Shown piece by piece: positions 1,832-11,848 of a DNA stretch of 18,609 nt. The stretch covers positions 1 to 18,609 of IMG/VR virus record IMGVR_UViG_2534681878_000012; one strand, written 5' to 3'. Position 1 is the first letter of the stretch. Each line of letters begins with the position of its first letter. The position numbers and the translations under genes are program-made. The notes under the pieces are model-generated. The model made no database searches. It was not told where the DNA came from and saw only the letters and a list, made by a program, of their open reading frames with translations. The stretch is from a virus. Lineage: Duplodnaviria; Heunggongvirae; Uroviricota; Caudoviricetes.

Positions 1832-1889
1832 AAAAAGGGCGGCAGAGCAGCCACGGAGTAAAACTGATACCGCCAAACGTCACCAGAAA
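1832..1889 (-). ncRNA. dicF: DicF small regulatory RNA (ftsZ-targeting antisense sRNA of the dicB operon)
   Basis: Minus-strand sequence tttctggtgacgtttggcggtatcagttttactccgtggctgctctgccgcccttttt matches remembered DicF apart from one base, ends in a GC stem plus U-run, and sits between the ydfA-side genes and dicB. Ends are approximate. Confidence 0.8.
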
Positions 1890-4677: not shown

Positions 4678-5230
4678 AAAGGTGAAAACCGGCAGTTCAT
4701 CCAGTAAGTCTGTATTGACCTGGCTTGCTGATATGTGCGGTGCCGATTTGTGTGCATACCCGTCTGTATCTGCACTGGCAGAAGTAACGGAACTGAACAA
4801 AAAGACTGTGCAGGACAGCTTACGACACCTGATGGAGATTGGGTTAATTGTTGATACCGGTGAGAGAAAAGGCAGAACAAAGCAAATTGTGGTGTACCGA
4901 CTTATCGGTGTAGAAGAAAGTGTTGCCGAGCCTGAATACACCCAAAAACGGGTGTCTTTAAAGGTGGGTAAAATTGGTGCTGTTAATAAAAACAGTACCG
5001 AAAACGGTTATGTTTCAGCACAAAAGAGCCCCAAAAACGGAACTCTTTGTTGCATGGAAAATAACCAAAGACACCCAAATTTTCCATCAAAGACACCCAA
5101 AAACGGATCACGGAACCCAAAGGAACCCAAAGATCTAAACCCCACACATAACGCACGCGAGAGTGCTCCGATCAGTGAGCAGGAAGTTTTGTCGTTACAG
5201 GCAGCCCCCATGTATTCCTGGATGGCCTGA
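4649..5230 (+). CDS. Replication initiator (lambda O-like) with N-terminal winged-helix domain and low-complexity linker
   Basis: Internal start MSIDALRWAKKVKTG... with AGGGG RBS 6 nt upstream (track ORF starts at 4574). ...VQDSLRHLMEIGLIVD... is typical of phage initiator N-terminal domains; the linker carries PKNG repeats coinciding with DNA iterons. Confidence 0.6.
   Translation: MSIDALRWAKKVKTGSSSSKSVLTWLADMCGADLCAYPSVSALAEVTELNKKTVQDSLRHLMEIGLIVDTGERKGRTKQIVVYRLIGVEESVAEPEYTQKRVSLKVGKIGAVNKNSTENGYVSAQKSPKNGTLCCMENNQRHPNFPSKTPKNGSRNPKEPKDLNPTHNARESAPISEQEVLSLQAAPMYSWMA
4997..5132. repeat. Iteron-like direct repeats (ACCCAAA(AACGG)), candidate origin of replication inside the O-like gene
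   Basis: Five CCCAAA cores (5030, 5074, 5095, 5115, 5125) plus two degenerate copies (4997, 5064), several extended to ACCCAAAAACGG, at about 10-44 bp spacing. Confidence 0.5.
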
Positions 5231-7355: not shown

Positions 7356-7648
7356 GGGTGAGAGTTTATATTGCCGGTCCAATGACGGGATATGAAAATT
7401 TCAACCGTGAGGCGTTTCACAAGGCGGAAGAGGAACTGAAACGGGAAGGGCATACCGTCTTAACTCCGGCAGTACTTCCGGACGGGCTGACACAGCCGCA
7501 CTACATGGATATTTGCATGGCAATGATTCGTTGTGTGGATGCGATTTACATGCTGAATGGCTGGCAGCGGTCAGCGGGCGCTAAGGCAGAGCTGGCACTG
7601 GCGGAGAAACTGGGGCATGCGGTGATTTATCAGGAGGTGGCTCGATGA
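7352..7648 (+). CDS. DUF4406 / nucleoside 2-deoxyribosyltransferase-like small protein (98 aa)
   Basis: GTG start; N-terminal VYIAGPMTGYENFNREAFHKAEEEL... is the Rossmann-like signature of the NDT/DNPH1-like fold; stop overlaps the next ATG as ATGA. Confidence 0.6.
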   Translation: MRVRVYIAGPMTGYENFNREAFHKAEEELKREGHTVLTPAVLPDGLTQPHYMDICMAMIRCVDAIYMLNGWQRSAGAKAELALAEKLGHAVIYQEVAR

Positions 7649-8020
7649 GAGAGGTTAACTATGAGGCGCTTCGTGAGGCAGCACAAAACTATCAGTCGAC
7701 GCTGGCGTGGTATCAGGCTACCCCGGACAGCCCAAATGCTGAACGGGATTGTGATGCGGCTCTTGCTGCGTTTAAGCGTCATATCCGTCATCGGGAAGCG
7801 GATATTATCGCTGGTAGCTGGTTTGCTGGATGCGCGGGAAGTTCAATTACCGACTCGCTACGACCTTCGATATGGACACCCGATAAATGCAGATGAGCGA
7901 CATGTCATGATACCTAAAGAAAATGGCAGTTGGCTTTACCTGATTGACCTAGAACACGCATTACGCGTCGCTGGCATTCGCATCAAAGGAGAGGAGCATG
8001 GAAATAAAACCAGAGGATGA
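7645..8020 (+). pseudogene. Ead/Ea22-like gene, copy A, apparently frameshifted and shortened
   Basis: MREVNYEALREAAQ... N-terminus (frame of 7645) shares the Ea22-like motif with copy B; conserved C-terminus ...AGIRIKGEEHGNKTR is in the +1 frame (ends 8020). Frame switch lies near 7810-7830; total span about 125 codons versus 239 in copy B. Confidence 0.5.
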
Positions 8021-8354
8021 GTTAAGCAATATCGTTTTATTTCCGGTAAAAGAGGATGACCCTCGTAATCAGGTTAATTTTCTTTATGAGCCATCGGAAA
8101 GACCATATTGTCATCACGCCTCTGTTCGGGTTGACGAAAAAGAGCGCCAGGTCCGCTGTAAAATCTGCGGTGCGGTTGTGGAGCCGTTTGACTGGATGCT
8201 CTCTGTGGCGAAAAGAGAAACCAGACTGGCAGATGATGTAAGGCTATTGCGCCAGGAGGAACAGGAAAGGCGGAAAAATATAGAAAAGTTAATTCAGATT
8301 GAACGTAACGCGAAAGCGCGGATACGCAGGGCGACAAAATCCAGAACTGAATAA
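7998..8354 (+). CDS. Hypothetical protein with putative zinc ribbon (CHH...CxxC), cassette copy A, 118 aa
   Basis: Track ORF; start lies inside the Ea22-like 3' end; about 95% identical to 9696..10052. Confidence 0.65.
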   Translation: MEIKPEDELSNIVLFPVKEDDPRNQVNFLYEPSERPYCHHASVRVDEKERQVRCKICGAVVEPFDWMLSVAKRETRLADDVRLLRQEEQERRKNIEKLIQIERNAKARIRRATKSRTE

Positions 8355-8404
8355 ATAAATTTAGCGCTGTAAATAAAATCTAATCCTGAACTGGAGGTAT
8401 ATTT

Positions 8405-8617
8405 ATGTTAAATACACAGAAAGCCATTAATGCGGAAAAATATAACGAGTGGGCAAGAAAATTCTCTGAGCAGATTTTTAAAATTACTGGCGATGAGAAT
8501 GCGGCAAAAAATGAATTAGAACCGTGGACACCTGAAGGAAACGCACCAAATTATTGCTGGTGGGAGGTTGATCCGGTTGATGTTGCAAATGAAGCCATGA
8601 GTTACCACAACGATTAA
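8405..8617 (+). CDS. Hypothetical small protein (70 aa), cassette copy A
   Basis: Track ORF with GGAGG RBS; about 88% identical to 10101..10313. Confidence 0.65.
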   Translation: MLNTQKAINAEKYNEWARKFSEQIFKITGDENAAKNELEPWTPEGNAPNYCWWEVDPVDVANEAMSYHND

Positions 8618-8621
8618 TGTC

Positions 8622-8643
8622 AGGAGGCCGCCCGAAAGGGCGG
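8622..8643 (+). promoter_or_regulatory. SD plus GC hairpin with GAAA loop (AGGAGG, CCGCCC-GAAA-GGGCGG) upstream of the 8651 ATG
   Basis: AGGAGG 8622-8627, 6-bp GC stem 8628-8643, ATG at 8651; no U-run, so not a classical terminator. Identical element at 10318-10339. Confidence 0.5.
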
Positions 8644-8650
8644 TAGTTAA

Positions 8651-8833
8651 ATGCGAAAGTTTAAAATAATTATTGAAACGGGAATAGCCGGTGGAGATTT
8701 CGAGGATGAATTCGAAGTGGATGATGATGCGACGCCTGATGAAATACATGACGAAGCAAAAGATATTTTCTTTAACTACTGCAATTATTCATATCACGAA
8801 ATAAAAGACGAAGAGGAAGAACAAAATGGCTGA
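8651..8833 (+). CDS. Small highly acidic protein (60 aa)
   Basis: Track ORF rich in D/E (DFEDEFEVDDDATPDEIHDE...KDEEEEQNG); stop overlaps the next ATG. Confidence 0.55.
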   Translation: MRKFKIIIETGIAGGDFEDEFEVDDDATPDEIHDEAKDIFFNYCNYSYHEIKDEEEEQNG

Positions 8834-9002
8834 TTTTGGTTCAACTAAATACAGCGTCAGTTTTGAAGAATGGCATGAACTGTTAATGGAATATGCAGAG
8901 TTACGTGGTGGCAGTGCTGCTGATGCTGAAGCATGGCGTGATGATTATGAAGCAGGAAAAAATCCGGTCGAAGCATATTGTGATGAGTGGGGCGATGAAT
9001 GA
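8826..9002 (+). CDS. Small acidic protein (58 aa), not in ORF track
   Basis: Manual translation MADFGSTKYSVSFEEWHELLMEYAELRGGSAADAEAWRDDYEAGKNPVEAYCDEWGDE; start overlaps the previous stop and its stop overlaps the Ea22-like B start as ATGA. Confidence 0.5.
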   Translation: MADFGSTKYSVSFEEWHELLMEYAELRGGSAADAEAWRDDYEAGKNPVEAYCDEWGDE

Positions 9003-9718
9003 GCGAGATTGACTATCAGGCGCTGCGTGAAGCAGCAGAGAAAGCAACTAAAGGATGCTACATCGTAGGGCATACATCGGGCAATCAGCATGGGAATATA
9101 ACAGGAGTTTTTGTTTGTCAAAAATGGAAAGGAGAGCCCGGTGGCGTAATTGCAGAATGTCATGTTAACTGCCTGGTTGAAACAGATGCTCAGGCTTACG
9201 CAAACGCTGAATTTATTGCTGCCTTTAATCCAAATGTTGCGCTGGCACTACTGGATGAACGGGAAAGAAACCAGCAATACATCAAATCACGCGACCAGGA
9301 GAACGAGGAGATTGCGCTTACGGAAGGGAAGCTGCTAATCGAAAACGGCCGGCTTGTTGCCGATACGCTACGCCACTTAGCTGATAACGAAATCGACTCT
9401 GATTATTTTGCTATCACCTCAACGAATGAGAACGGTACTGAAATTGATCATGAGATGGCTATTACCGATTACGCACTGCAAGCTGCCGGAACTGTAGACG
9501 AATTGGTTGCGGCGTTGGAATCCGCAGAGAAGCGCATTGCAGAACTGGAAGCACGGGAAATATCGCTCCCAGAACGTAGCAGCATGCTTCATCGAACAGA
9601 TTTTCACGATGATTACCAAACGGTAATGGCATACAAAGTTTCTGAAGTCATCGCTGCAATCCGCGCCGCTGGCATTCGCATCAAAGGAGAGGAGCATGGA
9701 AATAAAACCAGAAGATGA
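8999..9718 (+). CDS. Ead/Ea22-like family protein, copy B (239 aa, intact)
   Basis: N-terminal MSEIDYQALREAAEKA... and C-terminal ...AGIRIKGEEHGNKTRR typical of the family; track ORF. Confidence 0.7.
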   Translation: MSEIDYQALREAAEKATKGCYIVGHTSGNQHGNITGVFVCQKWKGEPGGVIAECHVNCLVETDAQAYANAEFIAAFNPNVALALLDERERNQQYIKSRDQENEEIALTEGKLLIENGRLVADTLRHLADNEIDSDYFAITSTNENGTEIDHEMAITDYALQAAGTVDELVAALESAEKRIAELEAREISLPERSSMLHRTDFHDDYQTVMAYKVSEVIAAIRAAGIRIKGEEHGNKTRR

Positions 9719-10052
9719 GTTAAGCAATATCGTTTTATTTCCGGTAAAAGAGGATGACCCACGTAATCAGGTTAATTTTCTCTATGAGCCATCGGAAAGA
9801 CCATATTGCCATCACGCCTCTGTCCGGGTTGACGAAAAAGAGCGTCAGGTCCGCTGTAAAATCTGCGGTGCAGTTGTGGAGCCATTTGACTGGATGCTCT
9901 CTGTGGCGAAAAGAGAAACCAGACTGGCAGATGATGTAAGGATCTTGCGCCAGGAGGAACGGGAAAGGCGGAGAAATATAGAAAAGCTAATTCAGATTGA
10001 GCGTAACGTGAAAGCGCGGATACGCAGGGTGACAAAATCCAGAACTGAATAA
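9696..10052 (+). CDS. Hypothetical protein with putative zinc ribbon, cassette copy B, 118 aa
   Basis: Paralog of 7998..8354; same overlap with the Ea22-like 3' end. Confidence 0.65.
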   Translation: MEIKPEDELSNIVLFPVKEDDPRNQVNFLYEPSERPYCHHASVRVDEKERQVRCKICGAVVEPFDWMLSVAKRETRLADDVRILRQEERERRRNIEKLIQIERNVKARIRRVTKSRTE

Positions 10053-10100
10053 TTAAATTTAGCTCTGTTAAAAATTTAATCCTTAACCGGAGGTATATCA

Positions 10101-10313
10101 ATGTCAAACGCACAGAAAGTTATTAACGCTGAAAAATATAACGAGTGGGTGAAAAAGTTCTCAGAGCAGATTTTTAAAATTACTGGCGACGAGAATGCGG
10201 CAAAAAATGAATTAGAGCCGTGGACACCTGAAGGTGTCGACCCAAATTATTGCTGGTGGGATGTTGATCCAGTTGATGCTGCAAATGAAGCTATGAGTTA
10301 TCACAACGATTAA
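10101..10313 (+). CDS. Hypothetical small protein (70 aa), cassette copy B
   Basis: Paralog of 8405..8617 with GGAGG RBS. Confidence 0.65.
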   Translation: MSNAQKVINAEKYNEWVKKFSEQIFKITGDENAAKNELEPWTPEGVDPNYCWWDVDPVDAANEAMSYHND

Positions 10314-10317
10314 TGTC

Positions 10318-10339
10318 AGGAGGCCGCCCGAAAGGGCGG
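10318..10339 (+). promoter_or_regulatory. Second copy of the SD plus GAAA-loop hairpin, followed by a 4-codon mini-ORF
   Basis: Same sequence as 8622-8643; ATG at 10342 opens MKSD-stop (10342..10356). Confidence 0.45.
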
Positions 10340-10513
10340 TAATGAAAAGTGACTGAATTAACCAAAGAGAAATTAATCGAAGAAGCCAAATTAAAAATAG
10401 CGATTGCGAAATGCTACCCCAATTCAGGGATGGCACGGGTATAGGGCGAGTTATTCAAAATTGCACTGGCATAGCTGGAAGCAGATCCAGTTAAACGAGT
10501 TAACTCAGATCAG

Positions 10514-11227
10514 ATGCACCGAGTCTGCTTAGAAGCTAATCGCTATTTAGATAAATATGACGCGATGGCGAAAGAGGTAAATAAGTTGCTTGGACGCATC
10601 GCCCCGCCAGCGCCAGTATTTAACGGCGAATACGGTGACGCATATCAGGGCGCTCGTGAAGACCTGTCCATCTGGAAACGGCGAGCGCTTGAAGCTGATG
10701 AGCACGTTCGGCGACTGGAGCAAATCAATGACCACATGGTGAAAGAGGCGCAGGGAGAATCACGCATGGGCGAGCCTGTAATACGTGAGCCAGCACCGGT
10801 AGTGCCTGAAGAAGCAACTCCGGAAAACGTAGAAATGCTCTCTGGCTATGTTTCAACGTACAAATTAACCGATAGCGAGCGCGATATTGCTGCCGAAATA
10901 TGGAACGCCTGCCGCGCCGCCATGCTTCAGGCTGGAAACTTTCGGGAAAATAAGGGTTCGTCAACCAATAATTTTCGGGAAATCTCGGAAACGTCAACCA
11001 ACTATCCGGTAACTCCGGATGGTTGGATAAGCTGTAGTGAGCGAATGCCGGATGATGGTCAGCACGTAATTATTTTATGTGATGGCGCATTCGTTCTTTA
11101 TGCGCAATATCGAGACGGTGAGTTTTTTGATGTAGTCCGTAATGGTGATGAATTTTTCGAAACACAGAGCCGCAATGTAACCGACTGGATGCCGCTACCA
11201 GAACCGCCGCAGGAGGTGCGCCAATGA
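10514..11227 (+). CDS. DUF551-domain protein (Ead/Ea22-associated C-terminal domain), 237 aa as drawn
   Basis: C-terminal ...DGWISCSERMPDDGQHVIILCDGAFVLYAQYRDGEFFDV...WMPLPEPP resembles DUF551. No good RBS at 10514; the upstream same-frame sequence is interrupted by two TAG codons (10442, 10472). Confidence 0.55.
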   Translation: MHRVCLEANRYLDKYDAMAKEVNKLLGRIAPPAPVFNGEYGDAYQGAREDLSIWKRRALEADEHVRRLEQINDHMVKEAQGESRMGEPVIREPAPVVPEEATPENVEMLSGYVSTYKLTDSERDIAAEIWNACRAAMLQAGNFRENKGSSTNNFREISETSTNYPVTPDGWISCSERMPDDGQHVIILCDGAFVLYAQYRDGEFFDVVRNGDEFFETQSRNVTDWMPLPEPPQEVRQ

Positions 11228-11447: not shown

Positions 11448-11635
11448 ATTCATTACGATATGGGAATTCCCATATCGGGTAAAAACGGTTTGCGGTAAAG
11501 CGAGAGTTAAGTAGAATTGCTGCGGGTGCTTGAGGCTATCTGCCTCGGGCATGAACACCAACGGCAGATAGAGAAAAGCCCCAGTTAACATTACGCGTCC
11601 GGCAAGACGCTTAACATTAATCTGAGGCCATATCT

Positions 11636-11848
11636 ATGCTCTACACACGTAGGTTAGCCTCTTACGTGCCGAAAGGCAAGGAGAAGCAGGCTATGAAGCA
11701 GCAAAAGGCGATGCTAATCGCCCTGATCGTCATCTGTTTAACCGTCATAGTGACGGCACTGGTAACGAGGAAAGACCTCTGCGAGGTACGAATCCGAACC
11801 GGCCAGACGGAGGTCGCTGTCTTCACAGCTTACGAACCTGAGGAGTAA
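11636..11848 (+). CDS. hokD: Hok/Gef-family type I toxin (51-aa core from 11693) with in-frame Mok-like N-terminal extension
   Basis: Core MKQQKAMLIALIVICLTVIVTALVTRKDLCEVRIRTGQTEVAVFTAYEPEE matches remembered HokD/RelF. Structured leader (9-bp inverted repeat 11536-11544 / 11563-11571) and 3' stem-loop as in hok mRNAs. Confidence 0.8.
   Translation: MLYTRRLASYVPKGKEKQAMKQQKAMLIALIVICLTVIVTALVTRKDLCEVRIRTGQTEVAVFTAYEPEE
11644..11679 (-). promoter_or_regulatory. Putative Sok-like antisense RNA promoter opposite the mok/hok start
   Basis: Minus strand reads TTGCCT (11674-11679), 17 nt, TAACCT (11651-11656); transcription would run leftward across the 11636 start. Inferred by analogy with hok/sok. 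Confidence 0.35.

What the first reader, a model, noticed from the sequence alone, without database searches (positions are those of the whole stretch)
8622..8653. SD-hairpin-AUG arrangement repeated at both cassette ends
AGGAGG is followed by a 6-bp GC stem with a GAAA tetraloop and then a start codon (23 nt from the SD at 8651; 2 nt after the hairpin at 10342, opening a 4-codon mini-ORF). Folding the hairpin would bring SD and AUG to a functional distance, a mechanism known from T4 gene 38. It could also be an RNA processing or stabilising element; there is no U-run, so it is not a classical terminator.
Basis: partly seen in the sequence, partly recalled or inferred. Interest (0 to 1): 0.5.

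Follow-up and report, generated by a model that had tools for sequence, protein, structure and literature searches.

The report
Portable SD-hairpin ribosome-binding cassette in prophages
A 26-base unit, a strong ribosome-binding motif followed by a very stable RNA hairpin, sits just before the start codons of several unrelated small genes in E. coli lambda-like prophages; it most likely folds to bring that motif next to the start codon, as in two phage T4 genes, and it also marks where gene modules are swapped.

Summary
AGGAGG (8622-8627; 10318-10323) is followed by a 6-GC-pair stem, a G·U closing pair and a GAAA loop (-15.5 kcal/mol). The two copies are not independent: each is the 3' end of a diverged 0.69-kb direct repeat (7958-8645 / 9656-10341).

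The independent evidence is comparative. The 26-nt core TCAGGAGGCCGCCCGAAAGGGCGGTA occurs in about half of complete E. coli genomes and is always intergenic. Two upstream contexts reassort with five downstream gene families. The start codon lies 5-8 nt after the hairpin, and the spacer has no SD, in four families; the fifth has its own GGAG and starts at +10. Hairpin-less alleles of three of these genes carry an ordinary SD 4-8 nt upstream.

This fits a hairpin-bridged ("split") ribosome-binding site as in T4 genes 38 and 25. Here it is portable and doubles as a mosaic recombination joint. Function is inferred, not shown. Natural variation is too small for a covariation test.

At copy 2 the 4-codon mini-ORF is incidental. 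The relevant start is GTG 10349, 8 nt after the hairpin, and it opens a gene remnant killed by a nonsense mutation.

Rivals: stabiliser or processing hairpin, neutral boundary sequence, translational attenuator. It is not an intrinsic terminator.

The parts
8620..8645 (+). Copy 1 of the conserved 26-nt core TCAGGAGGCCGCCCGAAAGGGCGGTA (SD plus hairpin plus TA)
   Evidence: Identical in both window copies. The same core is shared by two upstream and five downstream contexts in IMG/VR loci. A 34-nt query centred on it matches 2659 of 5426 complete E. coli genomes.
8622..8627 (+). Shine-Dalgarno AGGAGG, 23 nt upstream of ATG 8651
   Evidence: Variants elsewhere keep GGAG or GAGG, except one AGGAAG: GGGAGG x27, CGGAGG x3, AGGGGG x1. 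TCAGGAGG is also the usual RBS of neighbouring genes in this operon.
8627..8644 (+). Hairpin: 5' arm 8627-8633, GAAA loop 8634-8637, 3' arm 8638-8644 (six G-C pairs plus closing G·U)
   Evidence: Energy -15.5 kcal/mol. P(stem) about 0.99. Unique among window hairpins.
8645..8650 (+). A/U-rich 6-nt spacer AGTTAA without an SD; the in-frame TAA at 8648-8650 rules out an upstream start
   Evidence: Spacer length is fixed per gene family while its sequence drifts: AGTTAA, AGTGAA, AATGAA, AAGACA.
8651..8833 (+). DUF7167 gene (60 aa), the cistron served by copy 1
   Evidence: Pfam DUF7167 E=7.9e-15, aligned from residue 2. PGAP calls the same start. A 64%-identical homologue starts at the same Met behind a normal RBS, GGGGGAG-TGAAAG-ATG, with no hairpin.
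8405..8617 (+). Upstream 70-aa gene (context 'a'); its TAA stop lies 4 nt before the SD
   Evidence: In context 'b' this gene is absent and a noncoding stretch of about 45 nt precedes the same core.
7958..8645 (+). Repeat copy 1: end of an ead/Ea22-like gene, 118-aa Zn-ribbon-like gene, 70-aa gene and the core
9656..10341 (+). Repeat copy 2, same content and 88-96% identical; homology ends at GGCGGTA
   Evidence: The related prophage in RM12761 has a single copy: ead-118aa-70aa-hairpin-DUF551.
10316..10341 (+). Copy 2 of the 26-nt core (SD 10318-10323; stem 10323-10329 / 10334-10340; loop 10330-10333)
10342..10356 (+). 4-codon mini-ORF ATG AAA AGT GAC TGA, judged incidental
   Evidence: It overlaps the N-terminus of the real downstream frame, and relatives use the start at +8.
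10349..10444 (+). Remnant of the MTELTKE... gene: GTG start 8 nt after the hairpin, 31 codons, then TAG (GAG to TAG)
   Evidence: The frame is intact and 277 aa long in L054, L056 and L098, and starts with ATG in other relatives. The window carries a nonsense mutation and diverges after about 10500. PGAP leaves window 10314-10513 unannotated.
10514..11227 (+).
   Evidence: Pfam DUF551 E=5e-21. Annotation.

Best explanation
The element is a portable intercistronic translation-initiation cassette of Escherichia/Shigella lambdoid prophages. It lies in the nin-like region of the early-right operon.

On the polycistronic mRNA the GC stem with its GNRA-type loop folds almost constitutively. That loops out 16-18 nt, so the single-stranded AGGAGG on its 5' side lies only 5-8 nt (6-9 counting the closing U) from the start codon on its 3' side. 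A 30S subunit can then pair with the SD and place the AUG in the P site. This is the 'split RBS' mechanism shown experimentally for T4 genes 38 and 25.

The same 26-nt core precedes many different genes. It therefore also acts as a short patch of homology at which gene modules are exchanged, and whatever is joined downstream arrives with a working RBS.

What is shown and what is inferred:
- Shown here: the sequence, the predicted stability, the conserved geometry, the reassortment of flanks, and the ordinary SDs of hairpin-less alleles.
- Inferred: that the hairpin forms in vivo, that the distal SD is the one used, and that recombination is targeted to the core.

In this window copy 1 would drive the DUF7167 gene (ATG 8651). 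Copy 2 sits before a dead gene remnant (GTG 10349).
For: 1. The geometry is conserved across unrelated genes. In 128 occurrences from 80 IMG/VR loci, the start codon lies at +6 (DUF7167), +5 (72-aa membrane protein), +8 (MTELTKE/DUF551-N) and +8 (MQEIKEN). The spacers are A/U-rich and contain no SD. A fifth family (MEITKER) starts at +10 behind its own GGAG. No spacer-length variant occurs within a gene family.
2. Natural controls exist. Hairpin-less alleles carry ordinary SDs: GGGGGAG-TGAAAG-ATG for DUF7167, AAGGAG-AGTGAT-ATG and GGGAG-TGAT-ATG for the 72-aa gene, and AAGGA-AAACTGAA-ATG for DUF551-N. These genes therefore depend on an SD, and in hairpin alleles the only strong one is the AGGAGG before the hairpin.
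3. Neighbouring genes in this operon mostly have an SD about 5 nt upstream, often the same TCAGGAGG. The core looks like a normal RBS with a hairpin inserted.
4. The hairpin is very stable (-15.5 kcal/mol) and P(stem) is at least 0.99 in 13 of 14 contexts. Using the 3'-arm pseudo-SD or a 23-nt linear spacing would require melting it.
5. The few natural variants keep the structure. Four C-to-U changes in the 5' arm all give G·U pairs, and the loop variants GGCA and GUCA keep the G...A ends.
6. The hairpin is always next to a start codon but not always next to a stop codon. In context 'a' the stop is 10 nt upstream; in context 'b' roughly 90-150 nt of noncoding sequence lie between the stop and the hairpin. 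This ties it to the downstream cistron.
7. Flanks reassort. Two upstream types and five downstream families give 8 of the 10 possible combinations, with homology breaking at the core edges.
8. There is an experimental precedent in T4 genes 38 and 25 (PMC3014915).
Against: - There is no expression, toeprint or structure-probing data for any copy.
- There is no double compensatory substitution. The element is young and confined to Escherichia/Shigella: only 1 real hit in 185,579 GTDB species genomes. Structural selection is therefore not demonstrated. By my own count 8 of the 14 possible stem transitions would keep pairing, so about five pair-keeping variants has a chance probability near 0.06.
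- The 3' arm AGGGCGGUA is itself a moderate anti-SD match (-7.8 kcal/mol) at the same spacing. The spacing argument therefore does not by itself discriminate bridging from a masked proximal SD.
- In context 'b' the distal SD is predicted to be partly paired with upstream UCCU or CCCUC (mean pairing 0.2-0.76).
- Allowing about 3 nt-equivalents for the helix end, the effective spacing is 9-12 nt, which is at the long end of the functional range.
- Three loci keep DUF7167 with only the 3' half of the hairpin and no AGGAGG.
Confidence: 0.5

Rival explanations
1. Intercistronic mRNA stabiliser or processing element. The hairpin forms the protected 3' end of upstream segments, or a 5' cap for the downstream segment, after endonucleolytic cleavage in the A/U-rich spacer. 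This would set differential stability within the long early-right transcript. The adjacent SD would be incidental.
For: The hairpin is an extremely stable GNRA-capped GC stem with no U-tract. It is followed by an A/U-rich single strand. In the window it lies directly after a stop codon, and it occurs up to 9 times per genome in polycistronic operons. Stabilising intercistronic hairpins are established biology (REP in malE-malF; recalled from my own knowledge, not checked here).
Against: This does not explain why a perfect AGGAGG always abuts the 5' side. It does not explain why the next start codon is always 5-10 nt away in five gene families, or why the spacers lack their own SD in four of them when hairpin-less alleles have one. 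In context 'b' the nearest upstream stop is roughly 90-150 nt away, so the hairpin is not tied to 3' ends of cistrons.
Confidence: 0.15
2. The element is essentially a neutral 'boundary sequence'. It would be a short conserved joint that persists and spreads because homologous recombination between co-resident lambdoid prophages keeps using and homogenising it, with no RNA-level role.
For: Homology between the window repeats and between unrelated loci breaks exactly at the core edges. Eight of the ten possible pairings of two upstream types with five downstream families are seen. The last 40 nt of the window repeat are identical although the adjacent gene is only 88% identical. The boundary-sequence model for lambdoid mosaicism exists (Susskind & Botstein 1978 and Clark et al. 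2001, as cited in PMC3233612).
Against: A neutral joint need not be a perfect hairpin, need not carry an SD, and need not sit at a fixed 5-8 nt from start codons that have lost their own SD. The only stem variants seen are pair-preserving. Twenty-six nt is at the lower limit for efficient homologous exchange (my own knowledge). This reading is compatible with the best explanation as a second role rather than a replacement.
Confidence: 0.15
3. Translational attenuator. The functional SD would be the weak GGGCGGU in the 3' arm, at the canonical distance. The hairpin masks it and keeps possibly toxic small proteins at very low level. The upstream AGGAGG would at most be a standby site.
For: AGGGCGGUA pairs with the anti-SD at -7.8 kcal/mol, about 5 nt from the start. 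That is comparable with some real RBSs in this operon, such as ydaT and rusA at -7.1. Three loci with an IS66-family insertion and three recombinant loci retain only the 3' arm before DUF7167.
Against: Melting a -15.5 kcal/mol stem to use a -7.8 kcal/mol SD is strongly unfavourable. The stop codon of the upstream gene lies 10 nt before the stem. By my estimate from known ribosome footprint dimensions, that is too far for a terminating ribosome to open it, and context 'b' has no upstream ORF nearby. The conserved perfect AGGAGG is left unexplained.
Confidence: 0.12
4. Transcription-level or protein-binding signal: a terminator, a pause hairpin, or a boxB-like site for an N-type antiterminator.
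For: GCCC-GAAA-GGGC resembles the lambda boxB stem with its GNRA-like loop (my own recollection). The element lies in the nin-like region, where lambda has terminators.
Against: There is no U-run on either strand. No boxA-like CGCTCTTA is visible in the roughly 40 nt upstream (read directly). The loop is a tetraloop, not a pentaloop. Transcription must pass both copies to reach Q at about 14.8 kb. There is no Rfam match.
Confidence: 0.05

Closest known systems
Split (hairpin-bridged) ribosome-binding sites of phage T4 genes 38 and 25
   Same: The SD and AUG are too far apart in the linear sequence: 23 nt here, against 22 and 27 nt in T4. A stable hairpin lies entirely between them. Folded spacing is 5-8 nt here, against 5 and 11 nt in T4 (PMC3014915). 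The position is intercistronic in a phage polycistronic mRNA.
   Different: The T4 cases are gene-specific and experimentally proven. This element is a single invariant 26-nt unit reused before at least five unrelated genes in temperate lambdoid prophages. It coincides with mosaic breakpoints and has no experimental support. Its 3' arm also resembles a weak SD.
PeSLs (promoter-early stem-loops) of T4-type phages
   Same: A short conserved regulatory cassette containing a stem-loop, repeated between small non-essential ORFs of a hyperplastic region and mediating modular shuffling by recombination between copies (PMC2839356).
   Different: PeSLs consist of a sigma-70 promoter plus a terminator hairpin and act on transcription. 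Here there is no promoter and no U-tract, and the expression signal carried is an SD, so it would act on translation.
Conserved boundary or linker sequences at lambdoid module joints (Susskind-Botstein model; HK620 analysis of Clark et al. 2001)
   Same: A short conserved intergenic sequence shared by otherwise unrelated neighbouring modules, with homology breaks at its edges (model as cited in PMC3233612).
   Different: The described boundary sequences are not, to my knowledge, SD-hairpin-AUG units. I could not read the original HK620 paper.
Intercistronic stabilising hairpins / REP elements
   Same: A GC-rich hairpin without a U-tract between cistrons, present in many copies per genome.
   Different: REPs are chromosomal, imperfect palindromes of about 35 nt, usually found after stop codons and unconnected with the SD or start geometry. 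This comparison rests on my own knowledge and was not tested.

Membership tests
Hairpin-bridged (split) RBS, T4 gene 38/25 type | SD and start codon separated by a linear distance too long for direct use (more than about 15 nt) | tested here: met
   There are 23 nt between G8627 and A8651. The distance is 22-25 nt in the four other-gene contexts that lack their own SD.
Hairpin-bridged (split) RBS, T4 gene 38/25 type | A stable secondary structure lies wholly between SD and AUG and reduces the spacing to a functional 5-11 nt | tested here: met
   Energy -15.5 kcal/mol. P(stem) at least 0.99 in 13 of 14 contexts. Residual spacer 5-8 nt.
Hairpin-bridged (split) RBS, T4 gene 38/25 type | SD and AUG themselves remain single-stranded | tested here: inconclusive
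   They are free in context 'a', which is the window's context (centroid). In context 'b' the SD is predicted to be partly paired, with mean pairing up to 0.76.
Hairpin-bridged (split) RBS, T4 gene 38/25 type | No alternative SD at canonical distance | tested here: inconclusive
   The spacers have none. However, the 3' arm AGGGCGGUA is a -7.8 kcal/mol anti-SD match, though it is locked in the stem.
Hairpin-bridged (split) RBS, T4 gene 38/25 type | Stem-disrupting mutations lower translation and compensatory ones restore it | not testable with these tools
   Needs reporter fusions or toeprinting.
Hairpin-bridged (split) RBS, T4 gene 38/25 type | Phylogenetic conservation of the structure (covariation) | tested here: inconclusive
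   Only C-to-U changes giving G·U pairs, and GNNA loop variants, were found. No double compensatory change was seen. The element is confined to Escherichia/Shigella.
Intrinsic (Rho-independent) terminator | GC-rich hairpin immediately followed by a U-tract | tested here: not met
   The hairpin is followed by AGTTAAATG or AATGAAAAG, and the reverse strand gives CCTCCTGAC. It was not listed by the terminator scan.
Lambdoid boundary sequence at module joints | Short conserved intergenic sequence shared by modules whose flanks are otherwise unrelated, with homology breaking at its edges | tested here: met
   26-nt core; two upstream types and five downstream families, with 8 of 10 combinations seen. 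The window repeat ends at GGCGGTA.
PeSL (T4-type mobile regulatory cassette) | Strong sigma-70 early promoter joined to a terminator stem-loop | tested here: not met
   No promoter-like site at or next to the core. The nearest listed sites, 8525-8554 and 10221-10250, are weak 9-of-12 matches inside the 70-aa gene. There is no U-tract.
Lambda-type nut site (boxA + boxB) | boxA (CGCTCTTA-like) a few nt upstream of a 5-bp stem with a GNRA-like pentaloop | tested here: not met
   No boxA-like sequence in 8580-8621 (read directly). The loop is a tetraloop on a 7-bp stem. The feature definition is from my own knowledge.
Any curated RNA family (Rfam 15) | Covariance-model match | tested here: not met
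   No hit at the hairpin at gathering threshold or at E up to 10, in the window or in a context-'b' locus.

The most novel reading that the evidence does not exclude
The 26-nt SD-hairpin core is a self-contained, recombination-spread expression cassette, a translational counterpart in lambdoid prophages of the T4 PeSLs. Any ORF joined behind it by exchange at the core is immediately translated. The constitutively folded hairpin both sets the SD-AUG geometry and insulates the RBS from whatever sequence lies upstream. This would couple gene shuffling in the nin-region 'ORFanage' to guaranteed expression, and it would explain the element's presence in about half of E. coli genomes.
Probability: 0.3. 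Interest if true: 0.65.

Novelty: new member of a known kind. Interest (0 to 1): 0.42.

Why it matters
Proven split ribosome-binding sites are very few; the review read here describes only T4 genes 38 and 25. If this element works the same way, it would be a very widespread natural example. A 34-nt query centred on the core matched 4900 places in 2659 of 5426 complete E. coli genomes. It would also be an example in which the SD-hairpin unit is reused in front of unrelated genes.

There are two practical consequences:
- Gene finders that score linear SD-start spacing can mis-call these starts. Database proteins that read through the hairpin were seen.
- The unit could serve as a compact insulated RBS part.

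It also gives a concrete, testable case for the old idea that lambdoid mosaicism uses short conserved boundary sequences.

Tried and rejected
- **Rfam.** Whole window at gathering threshold, the 7900-10700 region at E up to 10, and a context-'b' locus all gave nothing at the hairpin.
- **Covariation.** A degenerate transition-tolerant pattern scanned over one genome per GTDB species gave 1 real hit (Shigella flexneri) and 4 random ones. No divergent orthologues exist to test.
- **Protein-anchored retrieval.** The DUF7167 search returned 80 loci that were all 100% identical at protein level. The family is E. coli-only by word search. The 70-aa upstream protein is found in only 8 phage records.
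- **Literature.** No paper contains the hairpin sequence. The Pas sRNA preprint was irrelevant.
- **K-12 data.** I looked for a copy in K-12 so that public Ribo-seq or structure-probing data could be used. The Rac prophage region of MG1655 lacks it, and one script failed on a missing file.
- **A general design?** I scanned 1.39 Mb of fetched prophage DNA for any other SD-hairpin-start arrangement. Only this element turned up, plus three terminator or spurious-GTG cases. A scan of the window found only copy 1.
- **Context 'b' as a small ORF.** Rejected. The variants are non-synonymous in both open frames (own reading).
- **The 4-codon mini-ORF as a functional leader peptide.** Rejected as incidental overlap with the MTELTKE frame.

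Full report
**What the window is.** The 2.7 kb around the finding is 100% identical to prophages of E. coli O145 and O157 strains. The RefSeq annotation of one of them and a BLAST map show the early-right operon of a lambdoid, Rac/Stx-like prophage:
- a repressor on the minus strand, then dicC/cro-like, ydaT, and replication genes;
- a nin-like run of small genes (DUF977, DUF4406, ead/Ea22-like, DUF7167, DUF551);
- hokD/sok, a RelE/HTH pair, DUF968, RusA and Q.

The finding lies in the nin-like run, on the sense strand of that operon.

**Checking the observation.**
- AGGAGG is at 8622-8627.
- The stem is C8628-C8633 paired with G8638-G8643, plus a closing G8627·U8644. The loop is GAAA (8634-8637).
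- ATG is at 8651, with 23 nt between the SD and the A.
- An identical copy occupies 10318-10340. The ATG at 10342 opens ATG AAA AGT GAC TGA.
- The hairpin is predicted at -15.5 kcal/mol and dominates the ensemble.
- These are the only two hairpins with six consecutive G-C pairs in the window. The 22-mer is never matched in shuffles.

So the description is accurate.

**The two copies are not independent.** A direct repeat of about 0.69 kb (7958-8645 vs 9656-10341) carries the end of an ead/Ea22-like gene, a 118-aa Zn-ribbon-like gene, a 70-aa gene and the hairpin. The copies are 96% and 88% identical in their two parts, so this is a juxtaposition of two diverged alleles rather than a fresh duplication. 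Homology stops one base after the hairpin (GGCGGTA). A close relative, the prophage in RM12761, has a single copy: ead-118aa-70aa-hairpin-DUF551. 'Both cassette ends' therefore means 'the 3' end of each repeat unit'.

- All but one, an unrelated terminator, share the 26-nt core TC(A/G/C)GGAGGCCGCCCGAAAGGGCGGTA, with TG in place of TA in the own-SD family.
- There are two upstream contexts. In (a) the 70-aa gene's stop lies 4 nt before the SD, as in the window. In (b) a noncoding stretch, AATCCTTAACCGGAGGGATTTCTGCACCCTCARAACA, replaces that gene.
- There are five downstream gene families: DUF7167 (start at +6 after the hairpin), a 72-aa membrane protein (+5), the MTELTKE N-terminal module of DUF551 proteins (+8), MQEIKEN (+8), and MEITKER (+10, with its own GGAG).
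- Upstream and downstream types reassort. Eight of the ten possible combinations are seen among 94 non-identical junctions.
- A 34-nt query centred on the core matches 2659 of 5426 complete E. coli genomes at 4900 places, up to 9 per genome. The listed hits have no annotated feature under the match.
- Only about 21 deposited phage genomes have it.
- Among one genome per GTDB species, only Shigella flexneri does.

**Evidence bearing on mechanism.**
- Within each downstream family the spacer length never changes although its sequence drifts (for example AGTTAA, AGTGAA, AATGAA and AAGACA for DUF7167). In four of the five families the spacer contains no SD.
- Hairpin-less alleles of three of these genes have a conventional SD 4-8 nt upstream:
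  - GGGGGAG-TGAAAG-ATG for a 64%-identical DUF7167;
  - AAGGAG-AGTGAT-ATG and GGGAG-TGAT-ATG for the 72-aa gene;
  - AAGGA-AAACTGAA-ATG for the DUF551-N module.
- Other genes of this operon mostly have an SD about 5 nt upstream, often the very same TCAGGAGG. The core therefore reads like a normal RBS into which a hairpin has been placed between SD and spacer.
- The hairpin is always within 5-10 nt of a start codon. It is not always near a stop codon; in context (b) roughly 90-150 nt separate the stop from the hairpin. This ties it to the downstream cistron.
- The few natural variants keep the structure. There are four C-to-U changes in the 5' arm, all giving G·U pairs, and two loop variants (GGCA, GUCA) that keep the terminal G and A.
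- P(stem) is at least 0.99 in 13 of 14 natural mRNA contexts.

**Best explanation: a hairpin-bridged ('split') ribosome-binding site.** The stem loops out 16-18 nt, so the AGGAGG lies 5-8 nt (6-9 with the closing U) from the start codon. This mechanism was shown experimentally for T4 gene 38 (22 nt reduced to 5) and gene 25 (27 nt reduced to 11) (PMC3014915). The difference here is that the SD-hairpin unit is reused before unrelated genes and coincides with mosaic joints. It thereby resembles two other things:
- the short boundary sequences proposed for lambdoid module exchange (model cited in PMC3233612);
- functionally, the PeSL cassettes of T4-type phages (PMC2839356), although PeSLs carry a promoter and terminator rather than an SD.

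I put this explanation at about 0.5, for five reasons:
- Nothing has been measured.
- There is no double compensatory change.
- The 3' arm AGGGCGGUA is a -7.8 kcal/mol anti-SD match at the same spacing.
- In context (b) the distal SD may be partly paired.
- A few loci keep DUF7167 behind only the 3' half of the hairpin.

**Rivals.**
- Stabiliser or processing hairpin (0.15). This fits the stable stem with no U-tract and the A/U-rich spacer. It does not explain the abutting SD, the fixed distance to starts, or the missing proximal SD.
- Neutral boundary sequence (0.15). This fits the breakpoints. It does not explain why the joint is a perfect hairpin with an SD at a fixed distance from starts. 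It is better seen as a second role of the same element.
- Attenuator through the masked 3'-arm pseudo-SD (0.12). Possible, but energetically unfavourable, and it leaves AGGAGG unexplained. By my estimate from known ribosome footprint sizes, a ribosome terminating at 8615-8617 would not reach the stem.
- Terminator, pause or boxB-like site (0.05). There is no U-run, no boxA and no Rfam hit, and transcription must pass both copies to reach Q.

**Copy 2.** Relatives start the downstream gene 8 nt after the hairpin, with ATG or GTG (MTELTKE...), and the frame is up to 277 aa long. In the window this frame starts at GTG 10349 and is cut by GAG-to-TAG at 10442-10444. It then diverges, and the intact DUF551 gene begins at 10514. 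PGAP leaves the gap unannotated. The 4-codon mini-ORF at 10342 overlaps this N-terminus and is most likely incidental. Its AUG would also sit too close to the SD in the folded state.

**Novelty and interest.** If the mechanism holds, this is a new member of the small class of split RBSs. Its new twist is that it is portable, very widespread in E. coli, and a recombination joint. It is not a new kind of system, and its function is unproven. I score interest at 0.42. The most novel reading not excluded is a recombination-spread translational expression cassette for nin-region ORFans, at probability about 0.3.

Noticed in passing
L002:3320-3385, L003:6620-6690, L209:215-280 (absent from the window): Context 'b' element in relatives: AATCCTTAACCGGAGGGATTTCTGCACCCTCAGAACATCAGGAGG plus the hairpin. 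It holds a first orphan SD (GGAGGG) that can pair with a downstream CCCUC. A UCCU in the AATCCTTAAC 'linker' can pair with the second SD (z-scores only -1.9 to -3.0). The same AATCCTKAACYGGAGG linker precedes the 70-aa gene in the window (8386-8401, 10082-10097). It may be a second conserved boundary sequence or an SD-masking switch.
   Followed up: partly
L210:1400-1600, L211:1-220: An IS66-family element (HTH_Tnp_1, TnpB_IS66, DDE_Tnp_IS66) is inserted inside the hairpin, leaving only GGCGGTAGTGAA before the DUF7167 ATG. Gene callers then extend the ORF upstream to 93 aa (P0004).
   Followed up: partly
proteins P0002, P0003: Database DUF7167 proteins of 87 aa start at an upstream ATG and read through context 'b' and the hairpin (MNFIKSLTGGISAPSEHQEAARKGGSE...). 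In P0003 (139 members) the normal ATG is mutated to AGG. These are probably mis-called starts or pseudogenes caused by the unusual RBS.
   Followed up: no
window 16433-16623 (+), 16624-16685 (-), 11524-11698 (+), 1837-1888 (-): Rfam matches above gathering score: STnc100 sRNA downstream of Q, the anti-sRNA AgvB on the opposite strand right next to it, sok antitoxin RNA with hokD, and DicF.
   Followed up: no
window 7645-8020: The first ead/Ea22-like gene is annotated as frameshifted in the identical RefSeq prophage. The left end of the 0.69-kb repeat (7958) lies inside it, so the repeat was probably created by recombination within ead/Ea22-like genes.
   Followed up: partly
window 10937-11001: Two tandem, 75%-identical 32-nt units (AACTTTCGGGAAAATAAGGGTTCGTCAACCAA / AATTTTCGGGAAATCTCGGAAACGTCAACCAA), with starts spaced 33 nt apart, inside the DUF551 gene (family D4).
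   Followed up: no
phage record PP818812.1 (hits H16, H95): 'Actinobacillus phage vB_Apl-pPE4' carries the E. coli-type core and about 95%-identical flanking nin-region DNA. That is odd for a Pasteurellaceae phage. It could be a host mis-assignment or a contaminating or induced E. coli prophage.
   Followed up: no
window 8612-8650: Frame coincidence: the frame of the 70-aa gene, after its TAA stop, stays open through the SD and hairpin (TGT CAG GAG GCC GCC CGA AAG GGC GGT AGT) to the TAA at 8648-8650, immediately before ATG 8651. This is probably without meaning and was not examined for readthrough.
   Followed up: no
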